From: Candidatus Heimdallarchaeota archaeon
Lineage (GTDB): Archaea; Asgardarchaeota; Heimdallarchaeia; Heimdallarchaeales; Heimdallarchaeaceae
Direction: 5' to 3'
Length of the DNA: 24,065 nucleotides
NCBI GenBank assembly: GCA_021399395.1
Contig: JAAFKJ010000172.1
Coordinates: 1 to 24,065 of the forward strand
Both the position numbers and the translations under genes were made by a program. This document shows, in pieces, positions 1 through 24,062 of this stretch (the stretch's first letter is position 1; each line of letters opens with the position of its first letter). The notes beneath the pieces were generated by a model. That model worked only from the letters and a program-made list of their open reading frames with translations. It ran no database searches and was not told the DNA's origin.

Positions 1-986
1 ATTCCTCGCTCCTCTGCTTTATACTTGAGCAGAGAAAGGAGTTTGTGATAGGGGACGATAACAAACATCTGGGTGGTCTTCTTCCTTAATCTAATTTGTT
101 GCTTCCACCCTGGATTATAACCTATATAGATAGTGCGTAAACCTCGTTTGTGCCACAAATTGACTAAAAATCTACTTAAATGGTGGAAACAGTCTTTAAC
201 CTTTCTTCTCCACTTTTCCTTAACTTGAAAATAAGCTGGCCCATATCGGAGCTTGTTCTTCTGCTGGAGTTGGACTCTTTGCTGTTGTGCATATTGTTCT
301 TGTAATTGACTGATTTTTTTCAGATAATATTGCATGATACTTTTGATTCCCTTCCCCTCGTCCTTGATAATAATCGGGCGTGAGCCGATATTATCCACAA
401 AGGTAACGAGGTTGGTTAAGCCCAGATCAAGTGCACCTTTTCGTTTGGTATTCTTCTGCACTTGCTTGGGGATGTGTTTGAGATAGATGATCTCTACGGT
501 ATACCCTACTCCTCTCGGAACGATTCTCACTTCTCGTAGATTATCTGTAGCTTTCAATCTAGTCTTGATGGTAAACGGTATTTTCTTAGGCAACACTAAC
601 CGACCATTGCTGATCTTTGCTTGTTGATTAGAGATGATCGCAATTGTCTCCCCATCAGGTGCTTTATAGTGAGGAGGGCGAGGTGGTCCGAGGAATTTAT
701 TTGGTTGCTTTTTCCATTCTTTACTAGCTTGGAAGAAGGCTTTCCAGTTTCGGATAAGTAGTTTGAGCGTGTGTTGAGCTGTGTGAGCGGGAAGTATACG
801 GTAACATGTTTCCTTCTTCAGTTTCCTGTCTAACTCATAATAAGAATATGCTGCTTTTTGTTGCAGTAACTGTTGTTTACACAGATAATTTGCTCGATTG
901 TAGAGATTCTTTGTTTGATGGCAGAGTGTGCTCAAAGCTGTGTGAGTTGGAGCTTCCATCACTTCTGCTCGAGGATAACTCTTCAT
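1..986 (-). CDS. tnpB: IS200/IS605-family RNA-guided endonuclease TnpB, partial (328 codons in window; 3' end runs off the left edge)
   Basis: Manual translation from ATG at 986 is open to position 1: MKSYPRAEVMEAPTHTALSTLCHQTKNLYNRANY...WKAFF...PRPPHYK...LREVRIVPRGVGYTVEIIY...GALDLGLTNL (RuvC-I Asp, codon 428-426)...FHHLSRFLV...IYIGYNPGWKQ...LLKYKAEERG. TTTTTATA box at -23 to -30 (1009-1016). Missing from the ORF track because there is no stop in the window. Confidence 0.95.
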   Translation of the reverse strand, partial: MKSYPRAEVMEAPTHTALSTLCHQTKNLYNRANYLCKQQLLQQKAAYSYYELDRKLKKETCYRILPAHTAQHTLKLLIRNWKAFFQASKEWKKQPNKFLGPPRPPHYKAPDGETIAIISNQQAKISNGRLVLPKKIPFTIKTRLKATDNLREVRIVPRGVGYTVEIIYLKHIPKQVQKNTKRKGALDLGLTNLVTFVDNIGSRPIIIKDEGKGIKSIMQYYLKKISQLQEQYAQQQRVQLQQKNKLRYGPAYFQVKEKWRRKVKDCFHHLSRFLVNLWHKRGLRTIYIGYNPGWKQQIRLRKKTTQMFVIVPYHKLLSLLKYKAEERG

Positions 987-1055: not shown

Positions 1056-1085
1056 TACATCATAAACTGTATTAGAAATGATGTA
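1056..1085. repeat. Perfect 8-bp inverted repeat TACATCAT-N14-ATGATGTA, candidate IS left-end hairpin
   Basis: Arms at 1056-1063 and 1078-1085. An overlapping alternative stem is ACAGTT (1041-1046) / AACTGT (1065-1070). Confidence 0.55.
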
Positions 1086-1158
1086 GCGTCATCCAGATTA
1101 TTTGCATAGGAAAAGGATAAATAAGTCTCTAATATATATTAAGAAGAATAGAAATTAG

Positions 1159-2214
1159 ATGGTCAGAATGAATCTTGCTCTTTATATTGCTGAAGAACAA
1201 ACCGCTCAGTTATTTGCTAAGGAAATTAAAGAAGTCCTATTAGAAATAGATCCTTCTTTGAGTATCTTAGAACTTCAAGATAAAGAGCTTGGAAAAGATA
1301 ATTGGGAAAATGAAATTCAAGATTTTTCAACACATCGGGTTAATTGTCTAATTGCAGTAGGAGATACAGGAACTTTTTTGAGAGCTATATTCCTGTGTCG
1401 CAATTCAATACCTATCGTTTCAGCATCTTCTGAGAGTATCAGTTTTTTTACAGAAATTAATCCTCTAAATGTAAAGGAAACCCTGCAAGCTTTGCTCTCT
1501 CAAAAGTATGATGTAGATAATTACAACCAAATAGTATTTCAAGATCTGAAAAGTAATCTTCCCGTACCTGCATTAAATGAAATCGCTATATTTCCTAAAG
1601 ACTCAGCTCTTCTGATGAACTATACTCTTATAGTCGACAAGAATCAGCTGTATAGAGGAAGGGCAGATGGTATAATAATATCTACTGCTCTAGGAAGTAC
1701 GGGTTATGCTCTATCCTCTGGAGGTCCAATTGCTTTTGGAAATCCAGATATTATCATTGTAGTTCCAGTTAATCCCTTGGGAAAAGATCACATTCCTTTG
1801 GTTTTGCCATCAGGTTCAGAAGTTAAACTTGTTAACATGAAATCAAGATCTCAGATTGAAGTTATTATTGATGGTCAATTAAGATTACAAGCTGATGAAG
1901 AGGTTTTGATAAGGAAATCGTCATCAACTGCAAAGATTATGCGGTTCCAAGCTAAGAGAAATATATTAGCTAAACTTCGAAATCGCTTAGTCGAACTAGA
2001 CCTGCGCAATCTCCAAGGAGTTCCACCTTCAGCAAAATATATCTTTAAACTTCTATTGACAGAAGGAGAAATGACTCAAAAAGAACTTATAGAAAGTACG
2101 GGTTTGCCTAACCGTACTGTTAGGAATGCTCTTGCTATACTGAAAGGGAAAGGAGTAATCAATCAGAGACCTCATTTAAGAGATGCAAGACAATCAATCT
2201 ACTATGTTGAATAA
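1159..2214 (+). CDS. NAD-kinase-like protein fused to a C-terminal winged-helix (MarR-like) DNA-binding domain
   Basis: ALNEIAI and ADGIIISTALGSTGYALSSGGP are NAD kinase signatures. GGDGT is replaced by GDTGT. The C-terminal PPSAKYIFKLL-TEGEMTQKEL-TGLPNRTVRNAL-RDARQSIY is a typical archaeal wHTH. Confidence 0.88.
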   Translation: MVRMNLALYIAEEQTAQLFAKEIKEVLLEIDPSLSILELQDKELGKDNWENEIQDFSTHRVNCLIAVGDTGTFLRAIFLCRNSIPIVSASSESISFFTEINPLNVKETLQALLSQKYDVDNYNQIVFQDLKSNLPVPALNEIAIFPKDSALLMNYTLIVDKNQLYRGRADGIIISTALGSTGYALSSGGPIAFGNPDIIIVVPVNPLGKDHIPLVLPSGSEVKLVNMKSRSQIEVIIDGQLRLQADEEVLIRKSSSTAKIMRFQAKRNILAKLRNRLVELDLRNLQGVPPSAKYIFKLLLTEGEMTQKELIESTGLPNRTVRNALAILKGKGVINQRPHLRDARQSIYYVE

Positions 2215-2215
2215 A

Positions 2216-2234
2216 GAAGAGCACTTCTCTTTTT
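2216..2234 (+). terminator. Putative terminator (short hairpin plus U-tract)
   Basis: AGAAG-agca-CTTCT followed by a T-run immediately after the stop at 2214. Confidence 0.4.
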
Positions 2235-2338
2235 CATAATATGTAAGATTCTATTCTTGATTGTACTATCAGATTTTTTATAAAGGATACTAAGTATAAT
2301 TTTACGGAACAAAACACTTTATCAGAGGAGTAGCTAGA

Positions 2339-3031
2339 ATGAATATGTTGACCCCGTTAACCCTAAAGAAAATTACAATTTTAGGGACAACTGGATCTGG
2401 CAAAACTACTTTTCTTGAAGCTCTTTTTGGAAATATCAGCAGAAATGATGTGGCGAGAAGGTTATTCAAAGAAGTGAGTAGTAATTTAGATTTTACACCT
2501 TTGAAATACAGCAATTTTACATCTAGTACAACAACAATCTCGTTGAATGTTGTAAATTCAGTAATAGTGTTAACACGTTTCAACAAAGTGATTCTTAGAA
2601 AATTCAAAGAAATTGATACTCTGGACTTTGAATCTATAGATTCAGCCTTTCAAGTTATTTTCAATGACCCAGCAGGTCAAGATAGATTTGATTTCATGCA
2701 AGATATTGCCATCAAAGGAGCTAATCTTGTTGTAATCATGGCTGATGGTACAAATATTTCTTCATTAGAAAAAATTGTTCATTATCTGGATATGGTAAAT
2801 CTAGAAGAATCAAGAAAACAAAGGAATATTCCTGTATTGGTATTTATCAATAAATCTGATTTGAGAGGTAAGGGAGTCTATCTTGGAAAAGAAGTTGCGG
2901 AACGTATAGTTTACTCATCTATAGTTGATAGGGAGTTGGTTTTTTATGAAACCTCGAATCTAGATGCTGACTGTTATGAACTACCTTTAACCATCGTTTT
3001 TAATTACTTAGCAATGCAAGCCTACAGCTAA
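2339..3031 (+). CDS. Ras-superfamily small GTPase (MglA/CvnD- or Arf/Rab-like) with insertions
   Basis: G1 GTTGSGKT, G2-like STTTISL, G3 DPAGQ(DRFDFM), G4 NKSD, G5-like ETSN. SD GAGGAG upstream. Confidence 0.9.
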   Translation: MNMLTPLTLKKITILGTTGSGKTTFLEALFGNISRNDVARRLFKEVSSNLDFTPLKYSNFTSSTTTISLNVVNSVIVLTRFNKVILRKFKEIDTLDFESIDSAFQVIFNDPAGQDRFDFMQDIAIKGANLVVIMADGTNISSLEKIVHYLDMVNLEESRKQRNIPVLVFINKSDLRGKGVYLGKEVAERIVYSSIVDRELVFYETSNLDADCYELPLTIVFNYLAMQAYS

Positions 3032-3038
3032 AACTGCT

Positions 3039-3066
3039 CAAACTAACTAAATCTTTATCTAGTTTG
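3039..3066. promoter_or_regulatory. 28-bp imperfect palindrome overlapping the TATA box of the 3081 gene
   Basis: CAAACTA-ac-TAAA-tc-TTTA-tc-TAGTTTG; TTTATCTA lies at -27 to -20 of ATG 3081. Confidence 0.55.
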
Positions 3067-3080
3067 CTTTTGACCTTAAC

Positions 3081-3449
3081 ATGAAAGGTATGAAAAATAT
3101 AAAACAAATTACCTTTAATTTTACACAGAGCCGCAGAATCAAGAATTATGCTCGAAAAAACAATATTCCAGAGAAGGAAGTTTTATCCAAATATCCGGAA
3201 GTAATACATATAATTTTCCAAGCTTGGAAAAAGAATTATTCTCAATCTCAAGATGTAGAATTCAGAGATTTCTTTCTCCAAGTAATGAAATTTGCAGAAT
3301 TTGAACATAGGTTGAAAGAAAGAAAGTCTGATCTGATTAAAATTAAAGATCATCTTATCATATTAGAAGATGCTTTAGTGGAGTACGACCGAGATTACAA
3401 TACAATTATCGAAATTGAACAAATTGTAAAAGACCTAACTGGGGGATGA
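3081..3449 (+). CDS. Hypothetical protein (possible ribbon-helix-helix-like N-terminus, helical/coiled-coil C-terminus)
   Basis: 122 aa, TATA box upstream, 4-bp gap to the next ORF. QITFNF-(helix)RRIKNYARKNN-IPEKEVL pattern. Confidence 0.7.
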   Translation: MKGMKNIKQITFNFTQSRRIKNYARKNNIPEKEVLSKYPEVIHIIFQAWKKNYSQSQDVEFRDFFLQVMKFAEFEHRLKERKSDLIKIKDHLIILEDALVEYDRDYNTIIEIEQIVKDLTGG

Positions 3450-3453
3450 TGAT

Positions 3454-3903
3454 ATGAAGATAGGTACAACCATGTACAAAGTAAAATTAAAAGATAAAAT
3501 CCCTTGTGATGATGAAAGCATTCTTGCTAGCGATTTAGCTTACTATTTGTACTATTTAGAGGTGATTCCAGAGGAACTTGCAGAATGGACTATGGAAGAT
3601 GTATCTAATAAGAGAGCTGAAGATGAAGAGATATTCACTGAATTAAGCAAGGAATATTCAGGATTATTTCAAGACTATGCTTTGATTAGACTAAAAGCAA
3701 ATGAACTATATGAGAGAAATCGCGTAATTGCTCTTACTCTGGGGATTCTAAGACTTAAGCTTATTCAGTTGAAAGAAAGTGGTAGAGAATTACCAATTGA
3801 TTATGATGAAGCAATCGAGAAAGTTGAATATTTTATCTATAGGTATCTAACAAAGAAACAAGATAAAAGACTGGTTGAACAAGTCGTTTTTGAAGAGAGA
3901 TAA
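3454..3903 (+). CDS. Hypothetical acidic all-alpha protein
   Basis: 149 aa; SD-like GGGGGA upstream; operonic with the 3081 gene; no recognised motif. Confidence 0.75.
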   Translation: MKIGTTMYKVKLKDKIPCDDESILASDLAYYLYYLEVIPEELAEWTMEDVSNKRAEDEEIFTELSKEYSGLFQDYALIRLKANELYERNRVIALTLGILRLKLIQLKESGRELPIDYDEAIEKVEYFIYRYLTKKQDKRLVEQVVFEER

Positions 3904-3939
3904 GGTTCATGTTCTTCAGATATTACAAATCTTATAGTT

Positions 3940-3965
3940 AAGGTCTAAACCTTCTCAACAAGGTT
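3940..3965. promoter_or_regulatory. Overlapping palindromes between the TATA box and the recombinase start (candidate recombinase binding site)
   Basis: AAGGT-ctaa-ACCTT (3940-3953) and AACCTT-ctcaac-AAGGTT (3948-3965); another AAGGTT at 3902-3907; CTTATAGT box at 3931-3938. Confidence 0.5.
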
Positions 3966-3968
3966 ATT

Positions 3969-4700
3969 ATGATTCGATGCGTAATTTATGTAAGAACATC
4001 AACAGCTGATCAAGAATCAGGTTTGGAGACTCAAATTGATGATGTTTCAGCTAAAATCTATCAAGTAGGGGACAGGGAGATAGTGAAGATCATTCGTGAT
4101 GAAGATACTCCTGGTGATAGTGATCCTGAATATAGAGAAGGATTTCTAGAAGTATTAAGAATGGTAAATAATGACGAAATTGATGAATTGTGGAGTCAAT
4201 CCAGAGATAGGTTATCAAGAGATGTAGACATTTTAGGGTACATTAGAATTCTACTAAAGAAGAAAGAAGTGCCGATAGTCTGTCTTGACGATGAAGATAA
4301 CAAAGCAATTGCGCGAGTTAAAGATTTATTTGGTGAAATGGAGCTTGAAAAATATCGTGAGAAGAGATACAAAGGGATGTTACGAAGAATAAATTCGAAA
4401 AAAGTCATGTCAAGACCACCTTTCGGATATGCTGTGGATGAAGAAGGTAGCTTAATAATTGACGACAGTAAAAGAGGGTTAATTCGAAGGCTTTTTGGTG
4501 AATTTGATAATCCATTCTCTTCTTTGAAAACCTTGAGCATGAAATACAACATCCCAGTTTCAACGTTGAGAAATATCCGATCCAATCCAATTTACAGAAC
4601 TGGAGAGGTTAGATGGGCCGGTAAAATTGCTTATTATGTTGAAGCGGTCGTACCAGAGGATAAAGATCAAATGTTGAAAACTGATTGGGAAGGAAGCTAA
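3969..4700 (+). CDS. Serine site-specific recombinase (resolvase catalytic domain plus recombinase domain, no zinc ribbon)
   Basis: YVRTST (catalytic Ser11), SRDRLSRD, long helix E then RPPFGY, and STLRNIRSNPIYRTG, as in large serine recombinases. The protein ends at 243 aa. Confidence 0.92.
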   Translation: MIRCVIYVRTSTADQESGLETQIDDVSAKIYQVGDREIVKIIRDEDTPGDSDPEYREGFLEVLRMVNNDEIDELWSQSRDRLSRDVDILGYIRILLKKKEVPIVCLDDEDNKAIARVKDLFGEMELEKYREKRYKGMLRRINSKKVMSRPPFGYAVDEEGSLIIDDSKRGLIRRLFGEFDNPFSSLKTLSMKYNIPVSTLRNIRSNPIYRTGEVRWAGKIAYYVEAVVPEDKDQMLKTDWEGS

Positions 4701-4831
4701 TCCTTCTTACTCATAAGTTTCATAAACATTTTCTTTTTCTGTTTCTCTTCTAATTTGAAGAATTTCTATGGTATAATAGATTTTTAAAAATAATAAAAAA
4801 AGAAGGAAGAAAATTTTAAACTCTTTTTCCT

Positions 4832-5659
4832 TTAATGTACTTTTTTCCTTAGAATATATGCTAATCCGATAACAAAAAGAGCTATCATACCGTATGCCCA
4901 ATTAAAGGGAATACTTTGAGTACTGATAGTGTTCAAAAGTATTAATTCGAATTTTTCTTTTCCTGCACTACTATCTATGGTTTCAGCAATTTCTAGTTTA
5001 TCCAAAGTACCCCATTCAACGTTGTAGCTAATTTCCATGACTGAATCAAATTTATAATCCCCTCCAAAAATTCCACCTGGTATATCAATATGTTCCTCTG
5101 CAGATATTATTAACAAATTGTCCTTCTTTTCAATATCATATGATCCACCTGGATCATTAAATTTAAACACTTCAAAATGCGCTACTACAAAATCAAAGAA
5201 ATCAACACTTGCAGTTGCATTTTGCAGAGTTACAGGTACAAAATACATCCAGAATACTGGACCCCAGAGTAAAGTTCCAGGATAAAGAGAGCCACCCCAG
5301 TCTAGTGCGGATGCATCGTTTCCTAGATAATCGTCATTTTTATAGAAATTCGCCCATTCTTCAGTTGTGGTGTGTATCTCTTCAAACGTAGTAAGGTTTA
5401 ATTCATCCGGATCTGTTGTGATGTTAACTCTAAGGATGTCGCCTAACTCCATAGTTATTCCCGGTTTTATTTCCCATTCATATAGATCTTCTTTTTCTAG
5501 TTTCATAATCTCCCAAGCAACTGATTCACCAGGAGATAAATTATCTGAGTAAGTAAAATCTAGATAACTAATTTCATACTCTGCTAGTGAAGTACTCATT
5601 GTAAACGAAAATATAGATAGACCTAACAAAGATAGAATAAATACAGCTTTTTTTTTCAT
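4832..5659 (-). CDS. Secreted, C-terminally membrane-anchored surface protein
   Basis: Signal peptide MKKKAVFILSLLGLSIFS; acidic beta-rich body; C-terminal IPFNW + TM helix + RKK; SD GAGGT. Confidence 0.85.
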   Translation of the reverse strand: MKKKAVFILSLLGLSIFSFTMSTSLAEYEISYLDFTYSDNLSPGESVAWEIMKLEKEDLYEWEIKPGITMELGDILRVNITTDPDELNLTTFEEIHTTTEEWANFYKNDDYLGNDASALDWGGSLYPGTLLWGPVFWMYFVPVTLQNATASVDFFDFVVAHFEVFKFNDPGGSYDIEKKDNLLIISAEEHIDIPGGIFGGDYKFDSVMEISYNVEWGTLDKLEIAETIDSSAGKEKFELILLNTISTQSIPFNWAYGMIALFVIGLAYILRKKVH

Positions 5660-5769
5660 TTATATTACCTCTATTTAATAAACTGAAAACAGTTTATATC
5701 AATCGCTAACTATCTATTTTACATTATTTAAATATATGGGGGAAGAATAACAATTAACATCTAGACTTT

Positions 5770-6675
5770 CTAGTCATACATTTCATGGATATATCCTTTT
5801 TCTAATACGACTCTGACATCTGGTATGTTCTTGCTGAAACAATACTCTGTTATATAACCAGTGACCAAGTTCTCAGGAATGACTTCAAAATAAGGATTGT
5901 AAACCTTGACTCCTTCAGGTTTGTCTTTAGCCCAGATGTCTTTTGAAGTATAACTTTGAACTGTAAATGGAATTGCTTTTAGTAGTAACTTTAAGGTAGA
6001 GCTGACAACATAGAACGGGATTTTATGTTGATAAGCAAATAAAGCTAAAGCATGACAACCTATTTTATTCGCAACATTTCCATTTGGAAATATAGTGTCT
6101 GCTCCGATTAATACAAGATCAGGTTTGAGAGTGATCATAGCCATAGACATTGCAGCATCAACTAAATAATTCACTTTGTATCCAAACTGTGTTACTTCCA
6201 GAGCAAGTTTTTTGCCTTCTAAAGCGGGTCTTGATTCAAAGACTGTTAGTTCTGGTAATTTTTCTTTATCTACTCCTTCACTCAATTTCTTAAGACTATA
6301 AACAATTGTACTTGATCTTGAAAACGTCATGATGTTTTTACACTTGGAAATTATTGGCAAGAGCTTTTCATTGACATTGCTTCTTTGTTCATCCATTTTA
6401 GCAATGACTCTTTCTGCTAATTTCTCAACAATTACTCCTTTGTGAAAGAAATCGATAAAATAAATCAAAACATTTCGAAGAGCAGACATTTCTTTCTTTA
6501 TATTCACAACTTCTCGAAGCATTTCAGTTAAATCCTTGATGTTGCCGTATTTTGCTGGATCATTATCTATTTCTTGTTTAACAATATGAATAGCTTTACG
6601 AACAATCTCTTCTGAACCACTGATTTTGTCAGTTTTCAGCTTAACTATTTCAGCTTCAAATGTTTCGGAATACAC
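5770..6675 (-). CDS. eIF-2B alpha/beta/delta family protein (sugar-phosphate isomerase fold)
   Basis: TFSRSST, FESRPALEG, VDAAM, LIGADTI, NKIG, NPYFEVIP, ITE motifs. GTG start with TTTAAAT about 25 bp upstream. Confidence 0.9.
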   Translation of the reverse strand: MYSETFEAEIVKLKTDKISGSEEIVRKAIHIVKQEIDNDPAKYGNIKDLTEMLREVVNIKKEMSALRNVLIYFIDFFHKGVIVEKLAERVIAKMDEQRSNVNEKLLPIISKCKNIMTFSRSSTIVYSLKKLSEGVDKEKLPELTVFESRPALEGKKLALEVTQFGYKVNYLVDAAMSMAMITLKPDLVLIGADTIFPNGNVANKIGCHALALFAYQHKIPFYVVSSTLKLLLKAIPFTVQSYTSKDIWAKDKPEGVKVYNPYFEVIPENLVTGYITEYCFSKNIPDVRVVLEKGYIHEMYD

Positions 6676-6731
6676 AAAGCTATTGTTAGAAGTCCATTTA
6701 AAAAGTTGTTTTTTTGATATAAAATAGGTAA

Positions 6732-7469
6732 TTACTTAATACCAAAGAACTCTTTTTCCTCTTCTATCATATCAATAAATAACCCATCTAGCCGATGGGT
6801 TAAATGAATAATATCGGGAGGTAAGACTCTAATTTTTGTTTGATTAAACCAAGTTAAAATGGTCTCATAGTGTTCTTCTTTAACCATCATATCTTTTTCT
6901 AAACGTATTATTAAGAGAGGGATATCCTTGTTTTCAACCTTTATATCACTCAAATTTCTACCAACTTTTCTGATACACTGGTTGTATTCTTTCTTCATAT
7001 TTCGAGCACCATGTTTTATAAACATATAAAGACCTTCAAAAGAAGCTGGTACTGCTTTTTTCAAATTGAATCCAGCGATGACTAGATTCATTGGAAATAG
7101 CAGAGCAAAGATTATTGCAAAAAGATACATAATTGGAACTGGTAGAAGAAACATGAAGTTGAGGAACCAATGTACATCTTGGATATGGGCAGAACCAACT
7201 AATACTACTCCCTTGCATTTAGGGAGATGTTTTCTTCCAAGCAGTTCTAAAATGTTAGAACCCCCCATACTATATCCTACTAGAATATATTCTCGATTTC
7301 CTGGAATAATTGATTCTATCTCTTCAAGATGTTCATCTATTGAAAATCTTTTCCAATTAGTTGTATGAGCGAAATTTTCCTTGCTAAATCTCTCCTCATA
7401 AATCGGATACTTTCGCTTATAATTAGTAAAACCTGCAACTAATATAATAAAGAGATCCTTCATATCCAT
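6732..7469 (-). CDS. Alpha/beta hydrolase fold protein
   Basis: GYSMGG nucleophile elbow; candidate acid (EKD) and His (IIHLTH); hydrophobic cap segment. Confidence 0.8.
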   Translation of the reverse strand: MDMKDLFIILVAGFTNYKRKYPIYEERFSKENFAHTTNWKRFSIDEHLEEIESIIPGNREYILVGYSMGGSNILELLGRKHLPKCKGVVLVGSAHIQDVHWFLNFMFLLPVPIMYLFAIIFALLFPMNLVIAGFNLKKAVPASFEGLYMFIKHGARNMKKEYNQCIRKVGRNLSDIKVENKDIPLLIIRLEKDMMVKEEHYETILTWFNQTKIRVLPPDIIHLTHRLDGLFIDMIEEEKEFFGIK

Positions 7470-19529: not shown

Positions 19530-19664
19530 GCCCGTAAGATTTTTAAGTGCGGGTGCGCGGTGATGTCTAACAGTTGAAAACTGGTTTGCATATTGGACGG
19601 AAGAAAGCCAATTTTCAGAATATATACGTTACAAAAAAATTATAAACGCACCAAGGTCACTCAC

Positions 19665-22600
19665 ATGGTTATATTGTCTAGAAAGAAACTGATATTTTCA
19701 CTATTTTCACTTATACTTATAGGTTCATTTTTGATTAGTCCAGCACAAGCTCAAGAGAATGAAGATCTGCTATATTTAACAGATACGATATCTGATGGAG
19801 GAGTATTAGAATCTGAAGTTATAATTGATGGGAACGGGAATCTTCATACTTTTATGATAGTTAAGAATAGTAATGGAACAAGGTTAGTTCATCTTTACTA
19901 TATTGAGGGTGTAATGAATTTTGATGTGATTGAGGAGTCCGCGCAAGGAGTTCATTTGTTTATCAGCTATGTTGTTGGTACAAAAGCTGGTATTGTCTAT
20001 TCTATAGATATTGGACCTGGAGCAAAAGATTTCAGGGTATATGAGAAACAAGATAGTTATGTCAACAATGCTTTGATATTTCATCTAACTTCAGAATTAG
20101 CTACTTGGTATGTTGACTACTATAAATTTCTCTTCGAAGATGGTTTGATTCATGGTTTTCATAATCATTTTTGGGGAGGAGACATGCAATTTATGAACAT
20201 CACTCACTACTATGGACCACCAAGTGGAACTATACTAAGTGAATCATTCTTTATTGCTGATTCAAATACTAAAAGTGCTATTGACATTGTGATTGATGAA
20301 TTTTCAAACCTCTGGTATATCTATGAATTAAGACAAGACGATTATGGTATAGGTATAGGCGAGTTGGATGACCTTAGTTACGGTCTAATTCCTGTAGCTA
20401 CTAGAATCTTTAGTGGAGTTCTCTATGATGTTCCAAAATTCATGGCAACCAGTTGTGATCCAGTTGATGGGCTTCTACAATTTGTATTCGTTAATCCCTA
20501 TAAGCTGTTTTGGGGATATTTCAATGGTATTTCTATCGCTGAAGACGTTCAATCAACTTTTTATATAGACCCAATAGATTTTGAGTTCAATATAGATGAT
20601 ACCGCAACATCAGTTTTAGTATTAGATTTAGTCGATGATAATATTTTGAACCTCTATCATTTTACCTTAACAGGTATTTCTTGGGGAGTCCAGAGCATTC
20701 AATCTGATGAAAAAATATTGGAAGATCAATATTCAGTATTTTTGGAAGGAGTTAATTTTGTTGTTATTTTCTCTACAAATATTAACACGAATCCCTATGG
20801 ACCAGATTCTCCTCTTGCTTTCAGGGAGAAGACTGGTTTAGCTCTATTCGTACTAGCAAATATAATATTAGAAACAGAATTGTATATTGAATCTCTCGAA
20901 GTCTATAATCCAATTATAGAGTTCTTTGTCACAAAATGGTGGGTTCTCGTTATTATTGGTGGAATATTAGTAATACTAGGACTAATCCTATGGGTAGCTC
21001 TCAAAAGGAGAAAGAAGGAAATTCATGCATTTCTCACAGATACTCAAGTCGGAGAAAACAAGTCAAGGTTTGCTCTTCTCTTCCTGAATATAGGTCGATT
21101 GATAAGAAATGGATTCAGTACAATTTTTACGATTTGGTTGTCAAATAAAAAACGTTCAATACTAACTTTAGCTGGTTTTATCATCACTGGCTATCTTCTA
21201 AGTTCGGCTGTAATAATAGCTCAAAGTGAAGAATCAGCAATGATTAAAGCTTTTGATAAATCATTCCCACTAATTGCAGATGGAGAAATATCTGCAAGGT
21301 TGGAGACTTCATTTATTACGGGTAATTATTCTCTAATTCAACCTTCTTATGGTACTGATGCTAGAAATGAGATACTTGATTTATATCATGGTTTAACAGT
21401 GGATAATTACATTGAAGACTTATTATCTGGGTATAGAACTATCGTACGAGTGTACAAAACTTTCGGATCAGCAGATCTCAGTTTCGTAGGATTACCTGAT
21501 GGCTGTGATGAATTTCTAGATACTATGTTGGTTTCTGGAAGATTGCCGATTAATGATACTGAAGTTTTAATTACAGATGCACTTTCTACTTCAACCGGTG
21601 TTGATATAAATGAAACTTTGACAATAGGTGGTTGGGCTGACTTCTGGGTAGGCTGGACAGGGGCTCCCGCTGATGAAGACGACTATAAAATTAATTGTAC
21701 AGTTGTTGGAATTTTTGAAAGAATTAGTGTTGGACAAGCCAAAAGGGTTTCCGAGCATCTAGGTGTCCCCTATGATATCTATACTATAGCATCAGAAAAC
21801 GCTGAAATTATAACAATACAAGACAATTTCTTCGAAATCTTATCGAATGGGAACAAGATGCATCTAGGAATGTGGGGTTACTATCAGCTGTTGATGAATT
21901 TTGATGAATTCAGTATAACTGATCGAGCTACTTTAGTCGAGGAACAAGATGAAATGCAACAAAAGATATACACTTTTAGTTTCGATCCTTCTTCTACAAT
22001 AAGCACACAAGTTATCGATGAACTTAATGATGAAGAAACAACTGAACTAAAACTCTTCTTTGAATCATTTAATGCTTATTACTTGAACAATATGGCCAGA
22101 TTGTTGATTTTTGCAATACCAGCAATTTTGCTTTCGATATTTATGGTGTTTGAATCTTCAGATCTCTTCTCATCAAGCTATGAACAAGAGATGGAGATTC
22201 TTAGAAATAGAGGTATATCAACTGGAAGGTTATTCAGTATGTATCTCATAATACGGCTTGCGGAGATTATAGTAGCAAGTCTTGCAAGTTTTGGAATAGC
22301 TATTGGAACAGCAATTCCTCTAATTAAAATTGATGGTTTCATATCATTTACTAATACTGATACTCATCTAGTAATTGGTAATATTCCAACTACGTTAGGA
22401 ATGATTGCGGGTGTGCTATTCATTGTATCAGTACCTCGAATATTGATACTTGTAAGAAGAAAGAGGAAAATTGAAAAAGCACCAAGAATCGCTAGAATGA
22501 AAATTAAGAAGGAACCAGAACCAACATTTGACATTCCAAAAGACGAAATTATAGTAGGAGAAAGTAAAACAGCAGGTAAGAGTTTAGCAGATGGCTATAC

Positions 22601-24062
22601 TGAAAAAGAAACAGAAACAACAATAACTTCTGTTCTTAATTACTTGGTGAAATCTAAATTACTGTCATGGAGAGATATTTTCTTCCTGGGTCTAGGAATA
22701 GGATTGTTTTACTTCTTCTTTAATAGGGCATTCATAGCTTTTGACACTCAAGCAGTTGATGATTTTACAATTTACCTATTCTTGACTATAGCAGGAGCAA
22801 TCTTTACTCTTATTGGTGGATTACCTTTTGCTGTAAAATTATTGGGACTAATTCAAAGATCTATTAGTGCATTAGTTTGGAGGTACAAAAAATCCCGATT
22901 CAGCTTCTCACTTGCTGAAATTGGTAAAGATATCAGGCATTTTGAGAATATTACATTGATTTTCTTATTGGTAGTGTTGATTATAGTACCAGTGCTAGTT
23001 GTTCCATATTCTAAAGAAACGACATTGACAGAACAAGCATACTTCATGAATGGAACTGACATCAGATTAATGAATTGGGATGATGTCGACATCATATCAG
23101 TAAACGATCTTGATTCTATCCCCCAGATAAGAAGTTATACACACATTGAAGAATATACGCTCTACGGTGGGGATTATGATCATGCGCGTCTACTTGTCGT
23201 GAATGTTACGGATTTTATGAAAACGATGACGGTTCCATCTGCAAGTGTCACGACTCTTGATTGGAATTTAATTGCATTACTGAATGAATCTAATATTTTA
23301 ATTTCCAACCCAATGAAGACTGAGTTACAGAAACCAATTGGTGGAACGTTAGATTTCGAATATTTATCTAATATACATACTATGACCATTTTGGGTAATT
23401 TTAATCTATTTCCAGTGTTTTACTCAAACTGGGATTTATATAACGAAGAACACATGATGATTATTTCTACAGAAGCATTTGAAATTATTGATCCTATAGT
23501 TAATAGGAGATTAAAGTTCAAAGATGAGATATTCATAAGAACATATTATGAAAAGGATGCACAAGTAGTGGTAGATAAACTCTATGCAATTGAACAAGGA
23601 TTAACAGTCGATACTATGTCCGAGGTGAAATCTAAACTTAAGACACCATTATACAACATCTTCATAATAGAAATGCTACTGTCGCTATTTGTTGCAACTG
23701 GAGTACTGATATTCTCCACATTTACAACAGCAATAAAGATACTAGAAAAGAGAGTAATCAAACATGATATCATGAAGAAGATGGGTATAAACTCATCGAA
23801 AATAATATCGATGTCTACGGTGCAAACGATGCTAGCAGCGATAGGACCGGCTTTAGCGATTGGGGCAATAGTAGGATTTAATGTAATAGGTCCTGTATTG
23901 AAACAGTTGAACTATGGAGCAGTTCCTTACAAGTTTTACATTAACTATCCATATATTATGATATCCGTTCTATTTGTAGGAATACCGTTACTGATCTATC
24001 TTAGCTTAAACTACTTCCTGAAAAAGGAATTTGGTAAATATGCACCAACAATGATGGAGTAA
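19665..24062 (+). CDS. Large FtsX/MacB-family ABC transporter permease with an extra N-terminal extracellular domain
   Basis: Signal peptide from ATG 19665 (MVILSRKKLIFSLFSLILIGSFLISPAQA); LVSGRLPINDTEVLI, EMEILRNRGIS, QAYFMNGTDIR, DIMKKMGINS; two extracellular-domain/FtsX modules. The track start at 19593 (TTG) is probably too early. Confidence 0.9.
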   Translation: MVILSRKKLIFSLFSLILIGSFLISPAQAQENEDLLYLTDTISDGGVLESEVIIDGNGNLHTFMIVKNSNGTRLVHLYYIEGVMNFDVIEESAQGVHLFISYVVGTKAGIVYSIDIGPGAKDFRVYEKQDSYVNNALIFHLTSELATWYVDYYKFLFEDGLIHGFHNHFWGGDMQFMNITHYYGPPSGTILSESFFIADSNTKSAIDIVIDEFSNLWYIYELRQDDYGIGIGELDDLSYGLIPVATRIFSGVLYDVPKFMATSCDPVDGLLQFVFVNPYKLFWGYFNGISIAEDVQSTFYIDPIDFEFNIDDTATSVLVLDLVDDNILNLYHFTLTGISWGVQSIQSDEKILEDQYSVFLEGVNFVVIFSTNINTNPYGPDSPLAFREKTGLALFVLANIILETELYIESLEVYNPIIEFFVTKWWVLVIIGGILVILGLILWVALKRRKKEIHAFLTDTQVGENKSRFALLFLNIGRLIRNGFSTIFTIWLSNKKRSILTLAGFIITGYLLSSAVIIAQSEESAMIKAFDKSFPLIADGEISARLETSFITGNYSLIQPSYGTDARNEILDLYHGLTVDNYIEDLLSGYRTIVRVYKTFGSADLSFVGLPDGCDEFLDTMLVSGRLPINDTEVLITDALSTSTGVDINETLTIGGWADFWVGWTGAPADEDDYKINCTVVGIFERISVGQAKRVSEHLGVPYDIYTIASENAEIITIQDNFFEILSNGNKMHLGMWGYYQLLMNFDEFSITDRATLVEEQDEMQQKIYTFSFDPSSTISTQVIDELNDEETTELKLFFESFNAYYLNNMARLLIFAIPAILLSIFMVFESSDLFSSSYEQEMEILRNRGISTGRLFSMYLIIRLAEIIVASLASFGIAIGTAIPLIKIDGFISFTNTDTHLVIGNIPTTLGMIAGVLFIVSVPRILILVRRKRKIEKAPRIARMKIKKEPEPTFDIPKDEIIVGESKTAGKSLADGYTEKETETTITSVLNYLVKSKLLSWRDIFFLGLGIGLFYFFFNRAFIAFDTQAVDDFTIYLFLTIAGAIFTLIGGLPFAVKLLGLIQRSISALVWRYKKSRFSFSLAEIGKDIRHFENITLIFLLVVLIIVPVLVVPYSKETTLTEQAYFMNGTDIRLMNWDDVDIISVNDLDSIPQIRSYTHIEEYTLYGGDYDHARLLVVNVTDFMKTMTVPSASVTTLDWNLIALLNESNILISNPMKTELQKPIGGTLDFEYLSNIHTMTILGNFNLFPVFYSNWDLYNEEHMMIISTEAFEIIDPIVNRRLKFKDEIFIRTYYEKDAQVVVDKLYAIEQGLTVDTMSEVKSKLKTPLYNIFIIEMLLSLFVATGVLIFSTFTTAIKILEKRVIKHDIMKKMGINSSKIISMSTVQTMLAAIGPALAIGAIVGFNVIGPVLKQLNYGAVPYKFYINYPYIMISVLFVGIPLLIYLSLNYFLKKEFGKYAPTMME

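What the first reader, a model, noticed from the sequence alone, without database searches (positions are those of the whole stretch)
2339..4700. Small GTPase + two orphan ORFs + compact serine recombinase cassette
Seen: four co-oriented genes. A Ras-like GTPase is followed by two coupled orphan helical proteins and a serine recombinase, with no integrase-associated, replication or transposase genes nearby. I know of no described system with this composition. Inference: either a domesticated recombinase-controlled regulatory switch or a minimal integrative element carrying a GTPase signalling or defence module.
Basis: inference. Interest (0 to 1): 0.7.

Follow-up and report, generated by a model that had tools for sequence, protein, structure and literature searches.

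The report
Domesticated mini serine recombinase neighbourhood
Four neighbouring genes in an Asgard (Heimdall-type) archaeon are a fixed, inherited stretch of chromosome and not a mobile element, and its short DNA recombinase is kept far more strictly than the genes around it, so the cell appears to have taken it over for a job of its own.

Summary
The four co-oriented genes are real and sit at the stated coordinates. They are a Ras/Arf-like GTPase, two family-restricted helical orphans, and a 243-aa serine recombinase (Rec).

The block is not an integrative element. Within one archaeal family (homologues are named Heimdallarchaeaceae) it holds the same chromosomal position, with the same housekeeping genes on its right flank, in all five genera sampled. 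It has no tRNA gene and no repeats flanking the four genes, and its base composition is like most of the window.

It reads best as three units:
- **GTPase:** separable. It is unlinked in one genus and a pseudogene in one genome.
- **ORF2-ORF3:** a translationally coupled pair that also exists as a second, paralogous pair elsewhere in the genome.
- **Rec:** has its own conserved palindromic upstream element. It is the slowest-evolving gene of the region (75-92% identity, against 36-55% for its housekeeping neighbours at the largest distance). In two genera the syntenic orthologue has lost the catalytic Ser/Arg residues but keeps the C-terminal half.

This indicates a domesticated recombinase whose constant activity is DNA binding. 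Its target is unknown. A 1063-bp surface-protein gene next to Rec is present or absent between ~99%-identical strains. That is suggestive, but it was not shown to be Rec's work.

The parts
2339..3031 (+). Small GTPase of the Ras/Arf superfamily, 230 aa, with a long insert between the P-loop and the DxxGQ motif. Read directly from the translation: G1 GTTGSGKT, G3 DPAGQ, G4 NKSD.
   Evidence: The closest solved structures are Arl8A/B (E 1.4e-8, covering only residues 110-217). The tree places it in a clade made up only of the f1 sequences.
3081..3449 (+). ORF2, a 122-aa orphan. Model: an extended N-terminal segment, two helices, then one 59-residue helix. Possibly a ribbon-helix-helix DNA-binding head on a coiled-coil stalk.
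   Evidence: AlphaFold2 mean pLDDT 87.2. Foldseek top hits are Arc, CopG, MatP and ParD, but all have E>=2. No Pfam or PDB sequence hit. All named relatives are Heimdall/Asgard records.
3454..3903 (+). ORF3, a 149-aa orphan. It is all-helical with a long helical hairpin (helices 47-82 and 84-108) and is translationally coupled to ORF2.
   Evidence: AlphaFold2 mean pLDDT 72.3. No fold match with E<2. Pfam gives only coiled-coil noise. 84 relatives were found, and every one that carries a name is Heimdall.
3922..3968 (+). Conserved element upstream of Rec: ATTAC, a TATA-like TTATAG, then AAGGT-N4-ACCTT-N6-AAGGT ending 4 nt before the ATG. It is read as a promoter plus palindromic operator. An RNA hairpin over the ribosome-binding site is the alternative.
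   Evidence: Aligned upstream regions from 22 loci. The full motif occurs once in the 2.8-Mb genome.
3969..4700 (+). Compact serine recombinase (Rec), 243 aa. It has an N-terminal catalytic domain with the YxRxST..Q and DRLSR motifs intact, an alpha-E helix, and a ~100-aa C-terminal domain (RPPFGY ... NPIYRTGE) that resembles the start of the recombinase domain of large serine recombinases.
   Evidence: (phrog_95 integrase, profile positions 87-322 of 651).
4711..5773 (.). A 1063-bp segment that is present or absent between strains. It carries one gene for a secreted, membrane-anchored protein (4832-5659, minus strand) and starts 10 nt after the Rec stop codon. It is flanked by imperfect direct repeats (about 4703-4740 and 5766-5803) that share the core TCATA. 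The left repeat is a diverged copy of the 3' end of the neighbouring IF-2B-family gene.
   Evidence: Contigs of runs X1 and X2 join 4710 to 5774. Repeats: (family D1, spacing 758+305 = 1063). The segment is absent in G021, G005, G008, G025, G029, G027, G030 and G028 (G004 carries different genes downstream of Rec) and present in G001.
5770..6675 (-). IF-2B-family gene (PF01008), convergent with Rec. It anchors the conserved right flank.
1159..2214 (+). NAD kinase with a C-terminal winged-helix domain. It is the left-flank neighbour in genus g1 only.
3..986 (-). TnpB-family RNA-guided nuclease gene, running off the window's end. Context only; not part of the block.
   Evidence: GC is 0.40-0.42, against 0.29-0.39 in the rest of the window. 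Contigs of other strains diverge at 1062-1065.

Best explanation
This is a vertically inherited chromosomal neighbourhood specific to one Asgard family (Heimdallarchaeaceae, going by the names attached to homologues). It is made of three separate units, not one four-gene system.

1. **GTPase.** A lineage-specific Arf/Ras-like GTPase, probably with its own promoter, that sits next to the others by synteny only.
2. **ORF2-ORF3.** A translationally coupled pair of helical proteins. I infer that they form a coiled-coil complex, and that ORF2 contributes a ribbon-helix-helix-like DNA-binding head.
3. **Rec.** A domesticated compact serine recombinase. I infer that it is transcribed from its own promoter and that a dimeric DNA-binding protein (Rec itself, or ORF2) occupies the palindrome AAGGT-N4-ACCTT between the TATA-like box and the start codon.

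In genera g1, g2 and g4, Rec keeps every catalytic residue and evolves more slowly than any neighbour, so I take it to be an active site-specific recombinase working on a chromosomal target that I could not identify. In genera g3 and g5 the syntenic orthologue has lost the nucleophile serine and the Arg/Asp cluster, while the alpha-E helix and the C-terminal domain remain conserved. The function common to the whole family is therefore sequence-specific DNA binding (regulatory or architectural), with strand exchange as an addition in some lineages.

**Shown:** gene content, synteny, relative conservation, loss of the catalytic motifs, the upstream motif, and the strain-level indel.

**Inferred:** promoter and operator function, ORF2-ORF3 complex formation, ORF2 DNA binding, and Rec activity.
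For: **Fixed position**
- Of 31 genomes of family f1 (G000 included), ORF3 and Rec are adjacent (gap <200 nt) in 22. They are separated by one inserted gene in 1 (G025) and lie on different contigs in 1 (G026). The remaining 7 could not be assessed because the locus was not assembled or not found.
- The right flank (IF-2B-family gene, hydrolase, NIPA-type transporter, amidohydrolase) recurs in all five genera, with individual genes missing in some (genus g3).
- ORF3 and Rec had no match at E<=1e-3, apart from one weak ORF3 hit (E 3.8e-4), in the 30 genomes of five other families. ORF2 gave only two weak hits there.

**Not mobile**
- No tRNA gene.
- No repeats flanking the four genes.
- GC is 0.30-0.36, inside the 0.29-0.39 of the rest of the window apart from the TnpB end.

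**Conservation**
- Against G027 (genus g4): Rec 77%, GTPase 63%, amidohydrolase 55%, hydrolase 47%, ORF3 44%, transporter 40%, ORF2 38%, IF-2B-family protein 36%.
- Rec identity falls steadily with distance: 92, 84, 79, 77%.

**Catalytic loss**
- Alignments A3 and A4 show YVRTSTADQ replaced by YI---NEENEE (g5) and YCRAVEKEE (g3), and SRDRLSRD replaced by DAKSVTQD and SEGVISHD.
- In these orthologues, residues 1-120 are 37-38% identical to the window's Rec, against 65-66% for residues 121-232.

**Separate units**
- ORF2 and ORF3 are adjacent in 25 of the 25 genomes where both orthologues were found.
- A paralogous ORF2-ORF3 pair lies elsewhere, with no GTPase or Rec match in the 9-13 kb fetched around it, in at least 6 genomes.
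- The Rec upstream element is conserved in all 19 Rec1 orthologue loci aligned.
- A Rec paralogue in this genome (C20, 47% identity) stands alone among metabolic genes.

**GTPase linkage**
- Of 25 assessable genomes, the GTPase is adjacent and not visibly broken in 19 (some copies are cut off at contig ends), an adjacent pseudogene in 1, separated from ORF2 by a ferritin-like gene in 2, and unlinked in 3.
Against: - No recombination target, inverted-repeat pair or excision junction attributable to Rec was found. A genome-wide scan for inverted repeats gave only chance-level hits.
- The catalytic domain is very well conserved in three genera. That argues for real enzymatic work, which this account leaves unspecified.
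- The ribbon-helix-helix reading of ORF2 rests on non-significant fold hits (E>=2) and on reading the sequence.
- The operator reading of the palindrome is not separated from an RNA-hairpin reading, because the arms never vary.
- Most genomes are incomplete MAGs (72-95% complete), so 'not found' does not mean absent.
Confidence: 0.6

Rival explanations
1. One four-gene functional system. The GTPase acts as a nucleotide-dependent switch that, through the ORF2-ORF3 coiled-coil pair, controls when the recombinase acts.
For: All four genes are co-oriented and close together. A GTPase of the same family-specific clade lies next to ORF2 in genera g1 and g5, and one gene away in g4.
Against: - The GTPase is on another contig in both g2 genomes, where ORF2 instead follows a giant surface-protein gene.
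- It is a pseudogene with 7 stops in G004 while ORF2, ORF3 and Rec stay intact.
- The linked copies in g4/g5 and in g1 fall in different sublineages of the tree (support 85/75 and 88/84).
- The paralogous ORF2-ORF3 pair has no GTPase or Rec beside it.
- Unrelated housekeeping genes are equally syntenic.
- Rec has its own conserved upstream element.
Confidence: 0.12
2. A resident 'cassette slot'. Rec (and its paralogues) inserts and excises single genes, mostly for surface proteins, at sites abutting its own gene. This would be an integron-like platform built on a serine recombinase.
For: - A 1063-bp single-gene segment starts 10 nt after the Rec stop codon. It is precisely absent in contigs that are ~99% identical (runs X1 and X2), and its imperfect direct repeats share a TCATA core.
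- Further loose ends at 4805 and 5716 hint at another allele.
- A 624-aa beta-helix surface-protein gene lies between ORF3 and Rec in G025 but not in G029.
- In G012 an alternative contig continues from the Rec start codon into a RelE/ParE-like toxin-antitoxin pair.
- The gene content between the paralogue Rec2 and its anchor gene p145 differs among 4 loci that contain both (G000:C20, L133, L136, L138). A fifth locus (L129) carries yet another gene set, without p145 in view.
Against: - Only one junction is resolved, and it has 5 bp of microhomology, which also fits slippage or homologous exchange.
- At least 27 of the 34 differences between the X1 contig and the window over 1062-4710 lie in 3254-4676. 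This suggests an old allele moved by homologous recombination and not a recent excision.
- No second copy of the segment or its repeats exists in the genome.
- No repeats flank the Rec2 insert.
- The G025/G029 difference is a replacement without repeats.
- Indels also occur elsewhere in the block, for example the TnpB insertions and the loss of the hydrolase gene, and I looked hardest near Rec.
- The catalytically dead orthologues cannot do this.
Confidence: 0.08
3. A decayed integrative element (provirus, plasmid or IS607-like transposon) that became fixed in the family ancestor. The four genes would be leftover cargo.
For: - ORF2, ORF3 and Rec appear together only in family f1.
- Rec's best PHROG match is an integrase family, and its best PDB match is an IS607-family TnpA catalytic domain.
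- A TnpB gene is 3 kb away.
Against: - No att repeats, tRNA gene or compositional signal.
- No replication, structural or transposase genes in the block.
- The TnpB gene is not syntenic: it sits at a different place in G008 and is absent elsewhere.
- Rec does not have the IS607 architecture. Its catalytic domain is N-terminal, and it scores 32 bits against the cut-off of 110.
- Strong purifying selection on Rec, and a paralogous ORF2-ORF3 pair, are not what decaying cargo shows.
Confidence: 0.05

Closest known systems
Large serine recombinases (phage integrases, XisF, SpoIVCA, CcrA)
   Same: N-terminal catalytic domain with the Ser/Arg motifs, an alpha-E helix, and a following domain that opens with the RPPFGY-type motif. 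Best profile matches are phrog_95 integrase (E 2.7e-26, profile positions 87-322 of 651) and NCBIfam XisF (E 1.2e-13). XisF and SpoIVCA are also host-domesticated (recalled, not from a call).
   Different: Only 243 aa. The match stops about a third of the way into the integrase profile. No PF07508 hit, no zinc-ribbon or coiled-coil domain, and all NCBIfam scores are far below their cut-offs. No interrupted target gene was seen.
Small resolvases/invertases (gamma-delta/Tn3 resolvase, Hin, Gin; Bacteroides Mpi as a chromosomal global invertase)
   Same: Size class, and the domain order of a catalytic domain followed by a small C-terminal DNA-binding domain. phrog_125 'DNA invertase' E 1.8e-13. 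A palindromic site directly upstream of the recombinase gene recalls res and autoregulation in Tn3-family elements (recalled). The stand-alone chromosomal location resembles Mpi (recalled).
   Different: No HTH_7 domain was detected. No partner site or inverted-repeat pair was found. No transposon context.
IS607-family TnpA with TnpB
   Same: Serine recombinase chemistry. The best solved-structure match is the ISC1926 TnpA catalytic domain (E 2e-4). A TnpB gene is in the window.
   Different: IS607 TnpA has its DNA-binding domain at the N-terminus and its catalytic domain at the C-terminus (recalled); here the order is the reverse. 32 bits against a cut-off of 110. The TnpB gene is 3 kb away on the other strand and is not syntenic.
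Compact ~240-aa recombinases of Thermoplasmatota MAGs
   Same: Same length and architecture, 48-56% identity, catalytic motifs intact, and stand-alone among chromosomal genes. These are the nearest relatives outside the family.
   Different: Different neighbours: an HNH gene in one locus (L123), and an RHH gene plus a 358-aa gene in two (L126, L127). These show no detectable similarity to ORF2 or ORF3. They are uncharacterised too.
Arf-like GTPase Arl8 and the Asgard small-GTPase expansion
   Same: G1, G3 and G4 motifs present. The best solved-structure matches are Arl8A/B. Asgard genomes carry many small GTPases (passages of PMC8813620 seen).
   Different: A ~60-residue insert between G1 and G3. 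Only the C-terminal half aligns to known structures.

Membership tests
Serine recombinase superfamily (PF00239) | Catalytic domain profile match above the curated threshold | tested here: met
   63.3 bits against a cut-off of 23.3, residues 5-140.
Serine recombinase superfamily (PF00239) | Nucleophile Ser in the Y-x-R-x-S-T motif, plus the D-R-x-x-R cluster | tested here: met
   The window protein has YVRTSTADQ and SRDRLSRD. These columns are nearly invariant in alignment A3 (Y7, R9, S11, D80, R81, R84). They are NOT met in the syntenic orthologues of genera g3 and g5. The numbering of the motif by analogy with gamma-delta resolvase is recalled.
Large serine recombinase / phage serine integrase | Full recombinase domain (PF07508) plus zinc-ribbon and coiled-coil domain; 400-700 aa | tested here: not met
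   243 aa. No PF07508 or zinc-ribbon hit at E<=0.1. The match to phrog_95 ends at profile position 322 of 651.
Small resolvase/invertase (Hin/Gin/Tn3 type) | C-terminal HTH_7-type helix-turn-helix domain | tested here: not met
   No HTH_7 hit at E<=0.1. The C-terminal domain is ~100 aa with RPPFGY ... NPIYRTGE motifs.
Small resolvase/invertase (Hin/Gin/Tn3 type) | Paired recombination sites (res, or inverted hix/gix-type sites) near the gene | tested here: inconclusive
   One palindromic element lies upstream of Rec. No second copy exists in the 82%-complete genome, and there are no recurrent inverted repeats.
IS607-family transposase | NCBIfam NF033518 at its threshold, with an N-terminal DNA-binding domain, a C-terminal catalytic domain and an adjacent TnpB gene | tested here: not met
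   32.1 bits against a cut-off of 110, and only the catalytic part aligns. The catalytic domain is N-terminal. The TnpB gene is not adjacent and not syntenic.
Integrative mobile element | Flanking att repeats, variable presence with empty sites, and integration or replication genes | tested here: not met
   No flanking repeats or tRNA gene. The position is the same in five genera. No empty site was seen in any genome with an assembled locus.
Integron-like cassette platform | A recombinase next to an insertion site that holds arrays of single-gene cassettes, each with a recombination site | tested here: inconclusive
   One single-gene indel with imperfect direct repeats lies next to Rec. There is no array, no recurring site, and no second copy.
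Ras-superfamily small GTPase | Profile match at threshold and the G1/G3/G4 motifs | tested here: met
   TIGR00231 45.6 bits against 42.5; Pfam Ras 38.1 against 21.6. GTTGSGKT, DPAGQ and NKSD were read in the translation.
Ribbon-helix-helix (CopG/Arc/MetJ) DNA-binding proteins (for ORF2) | Profile or fold match to the beta-alpha-alpha module | tested here: inconclusive
   No PF01402 hit in any of the 15 members. Foldseek ranks Arc, CopG, MatP and ParD highest, but with E 2-7 and probability <=0.35. The model has an extended segment followed by two helices.
Known anti-phage defence systems (PADLOC) | Any component model matched | tested here: not met
   Only P-loop-level hits for the GTPase (best E 3.5e-5, over residues 12-50). 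None for ORF2, ORF3 or Rec.

The most novel reading that the evidence does not exclude
The compact recombinase and its paralogues are the enzymes of a chromosomal cassette slot in Heimdallarchaeaceae. Single genes, mostly for cell-surface proteins, would be inserted and removed at sites abutting the recombinase gene, giving an integron-like or shufflon-like way to vary the cell surface that is built on a serine recombinase. The RHH-like/coiled-coil pair would serve as accessory or directionality factors.
Probability: 0.08. Interest if true: 0.85.

Novelty: new variant of a known kind. Interest (0 to 1): 0.45.

Why it matters
Domesticated site-specific recombinases are known in bacteria, for example developmental excisases and global invertases. 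I found no description of one in Asgard archaea. The full-text searches returned nothing on this family, and the paper on the circularised Heimdallarchaeum genomes does not contain the words recombinase, resolvase or invertase in its main text (its supplements were not read).

Here a 243-aa serine recombinase is the most strictly conserved gene of its neighbourhood in the archaeal family closest to eukaryotes. Natural 'catalytically dead' orthologues show that its DNA-binding half carries a function of its own.

This offers a tractable case of a recombinase turning into a DNA-binding factor. It is also a small candidate enzyme, should its target site be found. Finally, it is a caution that tidy-looking gene rows in Asgard genomes can be inherited synteny and not systems.

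Tried and rejected
- **ESM Atlas.** It does not hold ORF2 or ORF3. The ORF3 homologue P0015 gave only unnamed clusters, with 129-140 shared features, which is below the level that marks kin.
- **Fold searches.** The ORF2 and ORF3 models gave no match with E<2.
- **Profile searches.** The ORF2 and ORF3 alignments against PDB sequences and Pfam gave only coiled-coil noise. YabA matched 7 of 24 ORF3 members, best E 0.001.
- **Thermoplasmatota neighbours.** The genes next to Rec homologues there (an RHH gene and a 358-aa gene) compared with the ORF2 and ORF3 profiles gave probability 0.1.
- **Invertible DNA.** A genome-wide scan for inverted repeats of 13 nt or more, spaced 60-4000 nt apart, gave 376 pairs after filtering. 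The longest was 23 nt and no motif recurred, so this is chance level.
- **Other copies of the Rec upstream motif.** The full motif occurs once in the genome.
- **Second copy of the 1063-bp segment or its repeats.** None.
- **Repeats around the insert next to the paralogue Rec2.** None informative.
- **Indel boundaries in G025 against G029.** A replacement without repeats.
- **Laid runs.** They are contigs only, so rare variants, transcript ends and expression could not be read. Parts of the window without cover in some runs are not evidence.
- **IS607 link to the TnpB gene.** Considered and rejected, as set out in the membership test.
- **Defence-system reading.** Rejected.
- **Supplementary files.** None were opened. 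Supplements of PMC8813620 may list these genes.

Full report
**Observation**

- The first is a small GTPase: Pfam Ras 38.1 bits against a cut-off of 21.6, TIGR00231 45.6 against 42.5. GTTGSGKT, DPAGQ and NKSD are readable in the translation. Its nearest solved structures are Arl8A/B, but only residues 110-217 align.
- The two middle ORFs match nothing in Pfam or PADLOC, nothing in PHROGs below E 0.05, and nothing in NCBIfam near a cut-off.
- The last carries the resolvase catalytic domain, with no other Pfam domain.
A TnpB-family gene lies at 3-986 on the minus strand, in the only part of the window with raised GC (0.40-0.42).
- There is no tRNA gene, and no repeat pair brackets the four genes.

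**Organism**

Names attached by public sources to the closest homologues of ORF2, ORF3 and Rec are Candidatus Heimdallarchaeaceae, Heimdallarchaeota or 'Asgard group'. Rec relatives at 75-77% identity lie in records titled Ca. Heimdallarchaeum aukensis and Ca. H. endolithica.

**Synteny**

I searched 61 genomes: the window's own genome G000, 30 others of its family f1 (five genera in all), and 30 genomes of five other families of the class.
- ORF3 and Rec were found in 27 and 28 of the 30 other f1 genomes. In the other families neither was found, apart from one weak ORF3 hit.
- ORF2 was found in 26 of the 30 f1 genomes, with two weak hits outside.
- GTPase relatives at 34-46% identity occur throughout the class.

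From the coordinates:
- ORF2 and ORF3 are adjacent in 25 of the 25 genomes where both orthologues were found.
- Of the 31 f1 genomes, ORF3 and Rec are adjacent in 22. One inserted gene separates them in G025, they lie on separate contigs in G026, and 7 genomes cannot be assessed.
- Of 25 assessable genomes, the GTPase is adjacent to ORF2 and not visibly broken in 19 (some copies are cut off at contig ends). It is an adjacent pseudogene in G004 (7 stops) and lies one ferritin-like gene away in the two g4 genomes. It is unlinked in G025, G029 and G026.

Gene-by-gene comparison of 10-17-kb stretches shows the order NAD kinase, GTPase, ORF2, ORF3, Rec, IF-2B-family gene, hydrolase, NIPA-type transporter, amidohydrolase in genus g1. 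The right flank from the IF-2B-family gene onward recurs in all five genera, with some genes missing (genus g3). The block is therefore a fixed piece of chromosome. Clearly unrelated housekeeping genes are as syntenic as the four genes of the finding.

**Three units, not one**

ORF2-ORF3 behaves as a module. The two are 4 nt apart here and overlap by 4 nt or abut in relatives. A paralogous pair (about 20-37% identity) lies elsewhere in at least six genomes, with different neighbours and no GTPase or Rec match in the surrounding 9-13 kb.

Rec has its own conserved upstream element (window 3922-3968): ATTAC, a TATA-like TTATAG, then AAGGT-N4-ACCTT-N6-AAGGT ending 4 nt before the ATG.
- The whole element is conserved in the g1 and g2 orthologues.
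- The ACCTT-N5/6-AAGGT core is conserved in all 19 Rec1 orthologue loci aligned, including the two divergent genera.
- The full motif occurs once in the genome.
- Its position between a TATA-like box and the start codon fits an archaeal operator. An RNA hairpin that masks the AAGGT ribosome-binding site is the alternative. Because the arms never vary, covariation cannot decide between them.

The GTPase tree puts all the f1 sequences in one well-supported clade (99/99) with two sublineages. The copies linked to ORF2 in g4 and g5 fall in one, and those linked in g1 fall in the other, together with the unlinked copies of g2 and g5 (support 85/75 and 88/84). The neighbouring GTPase may therefore not even be the same orthologue across genera.

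**The recombinase**

Rec is 243 aa. The catalytic motifs YVRTSTADQ and SRDRLSRD are intact. An alpha-E region and a ~100-aa C-terminal domain follow, with RPPFGY and NPIYRTGE motifs.
- The best profile matches are a phage serine-integrase PHROG (E 2.7e-26, but only profile positions 87-322 of 651) and XisF, which is far below its cut-off.
- No HTH_7, PF07508 or zinc-ribbon domain is detected.
- It is therefore neither a classical small resolvase/invertase nor a large serine recombinase. It is not of IS607 type either, because the domain order is wrong and the score is 32 bits against a cut-off of 110.
- An exhaustive phmmer search of 1.84 billion cluster representatives found 677 proteins at E<=1e-3 but only 8 at E<=1e-30. 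Many of the more distant hits are also 220-260 aa long.
- The nearest relatives outside the family (48-56% identity, 236-287 aa as called, motifs intact) are in Thermoplasmatota MAGs. There they stand alone among chromosomal genes.
- This genome has a paralogue (contig C20, 47% identity) between a peptidase gene and a beta-helix surface-protein gene.

Two results point to domestication.
1. **Rec is the slowest-evolving gene of the region.** Against G027 (genus g4) the identities are Rec 77%, GTPase 63%, amidohydrolase 55%, hydrolase 47%, ORF3 44%, transporter 40%, ORF2 38% and IF-2B-family protein 36%. Rec identity falls steadily with distance (92, 84, 79, 77%), which fits vertical descent.
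2. **The syntenic orthologues in genera g5 and g3 have lost the catalytic residues in two different ways.** They read YI---NEENEE with DAKSVTQD, and YCRAVEKEE with SEGVISHD. They remain full-length ORFs. One of them is on record from four contigs. Residues 121-232 are 65-66% identical to the window's Rec, against 37-38% for residues 1-120.

The part kept in every lineage is therefore the alpha-E helix plus the C-terminal, presumably DNA-binding, half. Catalysis is dispensable in some lineages and strongly maintained in others.

**The orphans**

AlphaFold2 with family alignments gives two models.
- **ORF2** (mean pLDDT 87.2): an extended segment at residues 7-13, helices 14-26 and 31-53, then a single helix 61-119. 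Foldseek against the PDB ranks Arc, CopG, MatP, ParD and other ribbon-helix-helix proteins at the top. All have E>=2, so this is a lead and not a result.
- **ORF3** (mean pLDDT 72.3): helical, with a hairpin at 47-82 and 84-108. It has no fold match with E<2.

**Structural variation next to Rec**

Contigs of two runs from one study, about 99% identical to the window, join 4710 directly to 5774.
- The join skips 1063 bp that hold a single gene for a secreted, membrane-anchored protein (4832-5659, minus strand). That gene belongs to a multi-copy family often found in tandem arrays.
- The skipped segment starts 10 nt after the Rec stop codon.
- It is flanked by imperfect direct repeats sharing TCATA. 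The left repeat is a diverged copy of the last codons of the IF-2B-family gene (ENVYETYE* against GYIHEMYD*).
- The joined form restores the ...EMYE* ending seen in genomes that lack the segment.
- Against a recent excision, at least 27 of the 34 differences between that contig and the window over 1062-4710 lie in 3254-4676. That pattern is what an old allele moved by homologous recombination would leave.

Other variation hugging Rec genes:
- a 624-aa beta-helix surface-protein gene between ORF3 and Rec in G025 but not in G029;
- an assembly branch in G012 where, after the Rec start codon, one contig continues into Rec and another into a RelE/ParE-like toxin-antitoxin pair;
- gene content between the paralogue Rec2 and its anchor gene that differs from locus to locus.

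No recurring site, array or second copy was found. Indels also occur elsewhere in the block, and I looked hardest near Rec. I therefore hold the cassette-slot idea at about 8%.

**Comparison with what is known, and novelty**

The closest known kinds are host-domesticated serine recombinases (XisF and SpoIVCA among the large ones; global invertases such as Mpi among the small ones; recalled). This protein fails the defining domain tests for both size classes and for IS607 TnpA.

Three full-text searches found nothing on this family. The circularised-Heimdallarchaeum paper does not use the words recombinase, resolvase or invertase in its main text (passages seen; supplements not read).

I rate it a new variant of a known kind: a compact, domesticated archaeal serine recombinase with natural catalytically dead orthologues, sitting beside a family-specific orphan pair. 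The four-gene 'cassette' as such is not a system on present evidence.

**Verdict**

- Observation: partly confirmed (the genes are as described; 'no transposase nearby' is wrong).
- The integrative-element reading is rejected. The domesticated-recombinase reading is supported.
- Involvement of the GTPase is doubtful.
- Rec's target and the orphans' role remain open.
- Interest: 0.45.

Noticed in passing
window 3-986 (minus strand) and 1062-1065: A TnpB-family gene runs off the window's end, with higher GC (0.40-0.42) than the rest of the window. Contigs of near-identical strains diverge from the window at 1062-1065, so the element or its neighbourhood varies between strains. A TnpB relative (61% identity) sits at a different place in G008, beyond the IF-2B-family gene.
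   Followed up: partly
window 1159-2214: An NAD kinase (both Pfam halves) is fused to a C-terminal winged-helix DNA-binding domain (TrmB/MarR-type hits over residues 287-345).
   Followed up: no
window 4805 and 5716 (also 5517 and 5737-7011): Besides the clean 4710-to-5774 joint, contigs of runs X2-X4 leave the window at 4805, and one contig of X3 enters it at 5716. This hints at a third allele with other content in place of the surface-protein gene. Another X3 contig joins 5737 to 7011 with 10 other letters in between.
   Followed up: no
L048 (G012:C6) 1-460 against L020 (G012:C13): An assembly branch with a 127-nt identical overlap that ends 7 nt into the Rec ORF. One contig continues as Rec. 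The other continues into a short ORF followed by a RelE/ParE-like toxin ORF.
   Followed up: partly
L076 5583-7423; L082 5115-6906; L080 6335-7577: The paralogous ORF2-ORF3 pair has its own conserved neighbours. In g1 a 169-171-aa ORF lies directly upstream. In g1 and g4 a divergently transcribed 109-158-aa ORF is also present. Neither has a significant Pfam family.
   Followed up: partly
G000:C20:18197-20808 (L143); L129, L133, L136, L138: Downstream of the Rec paralogue (Rec2), the genes before the anchor gene p145 differ from locus to locus: a beta-helix surface protein, a 540-aa membrane protein, a 316-aa protein, or a methyltransferase-like 193-aa protein. L129 has a 1023-aa protein and a beta-helix protein, without p145 in view. 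In G007 and G016 an acetyltransferase-like gene follows Rec2 directly.
   Followed up: partly
L071 (G004:C65) 5973-6681: The GTPase next to ORF2 is broken into fragments with 7 in-frame stops, while ORF2, ORF3 and Rec are intact. The locus lies between a 1943-aa surface-protein gene and two further surface-protein genes (1173 and 916 aa).
   Followed up: partly
L123 6001-7124; L126 and L127: In Thermoplasmatota MAGs the Rec homologue overlaps an HNH endonuclease gene by 4 nt (L123). In L126 and L127 it follows an RHH gene (PF01402, E 0.002) and a 358-aa gene of no known family.
   Followed up: partly
L067 (G029:C16) about 7350-7390: A (GTCAT)n microsatellite lies just upstream of the conserved Rec upstream element in G029. 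In G025 the beta-helix gene takes its place.
   Followed up: no
window 19593-24062: A very long ORF (1489 aa, plus strand) at the far end of the window. Not examined.
   Followed up: no
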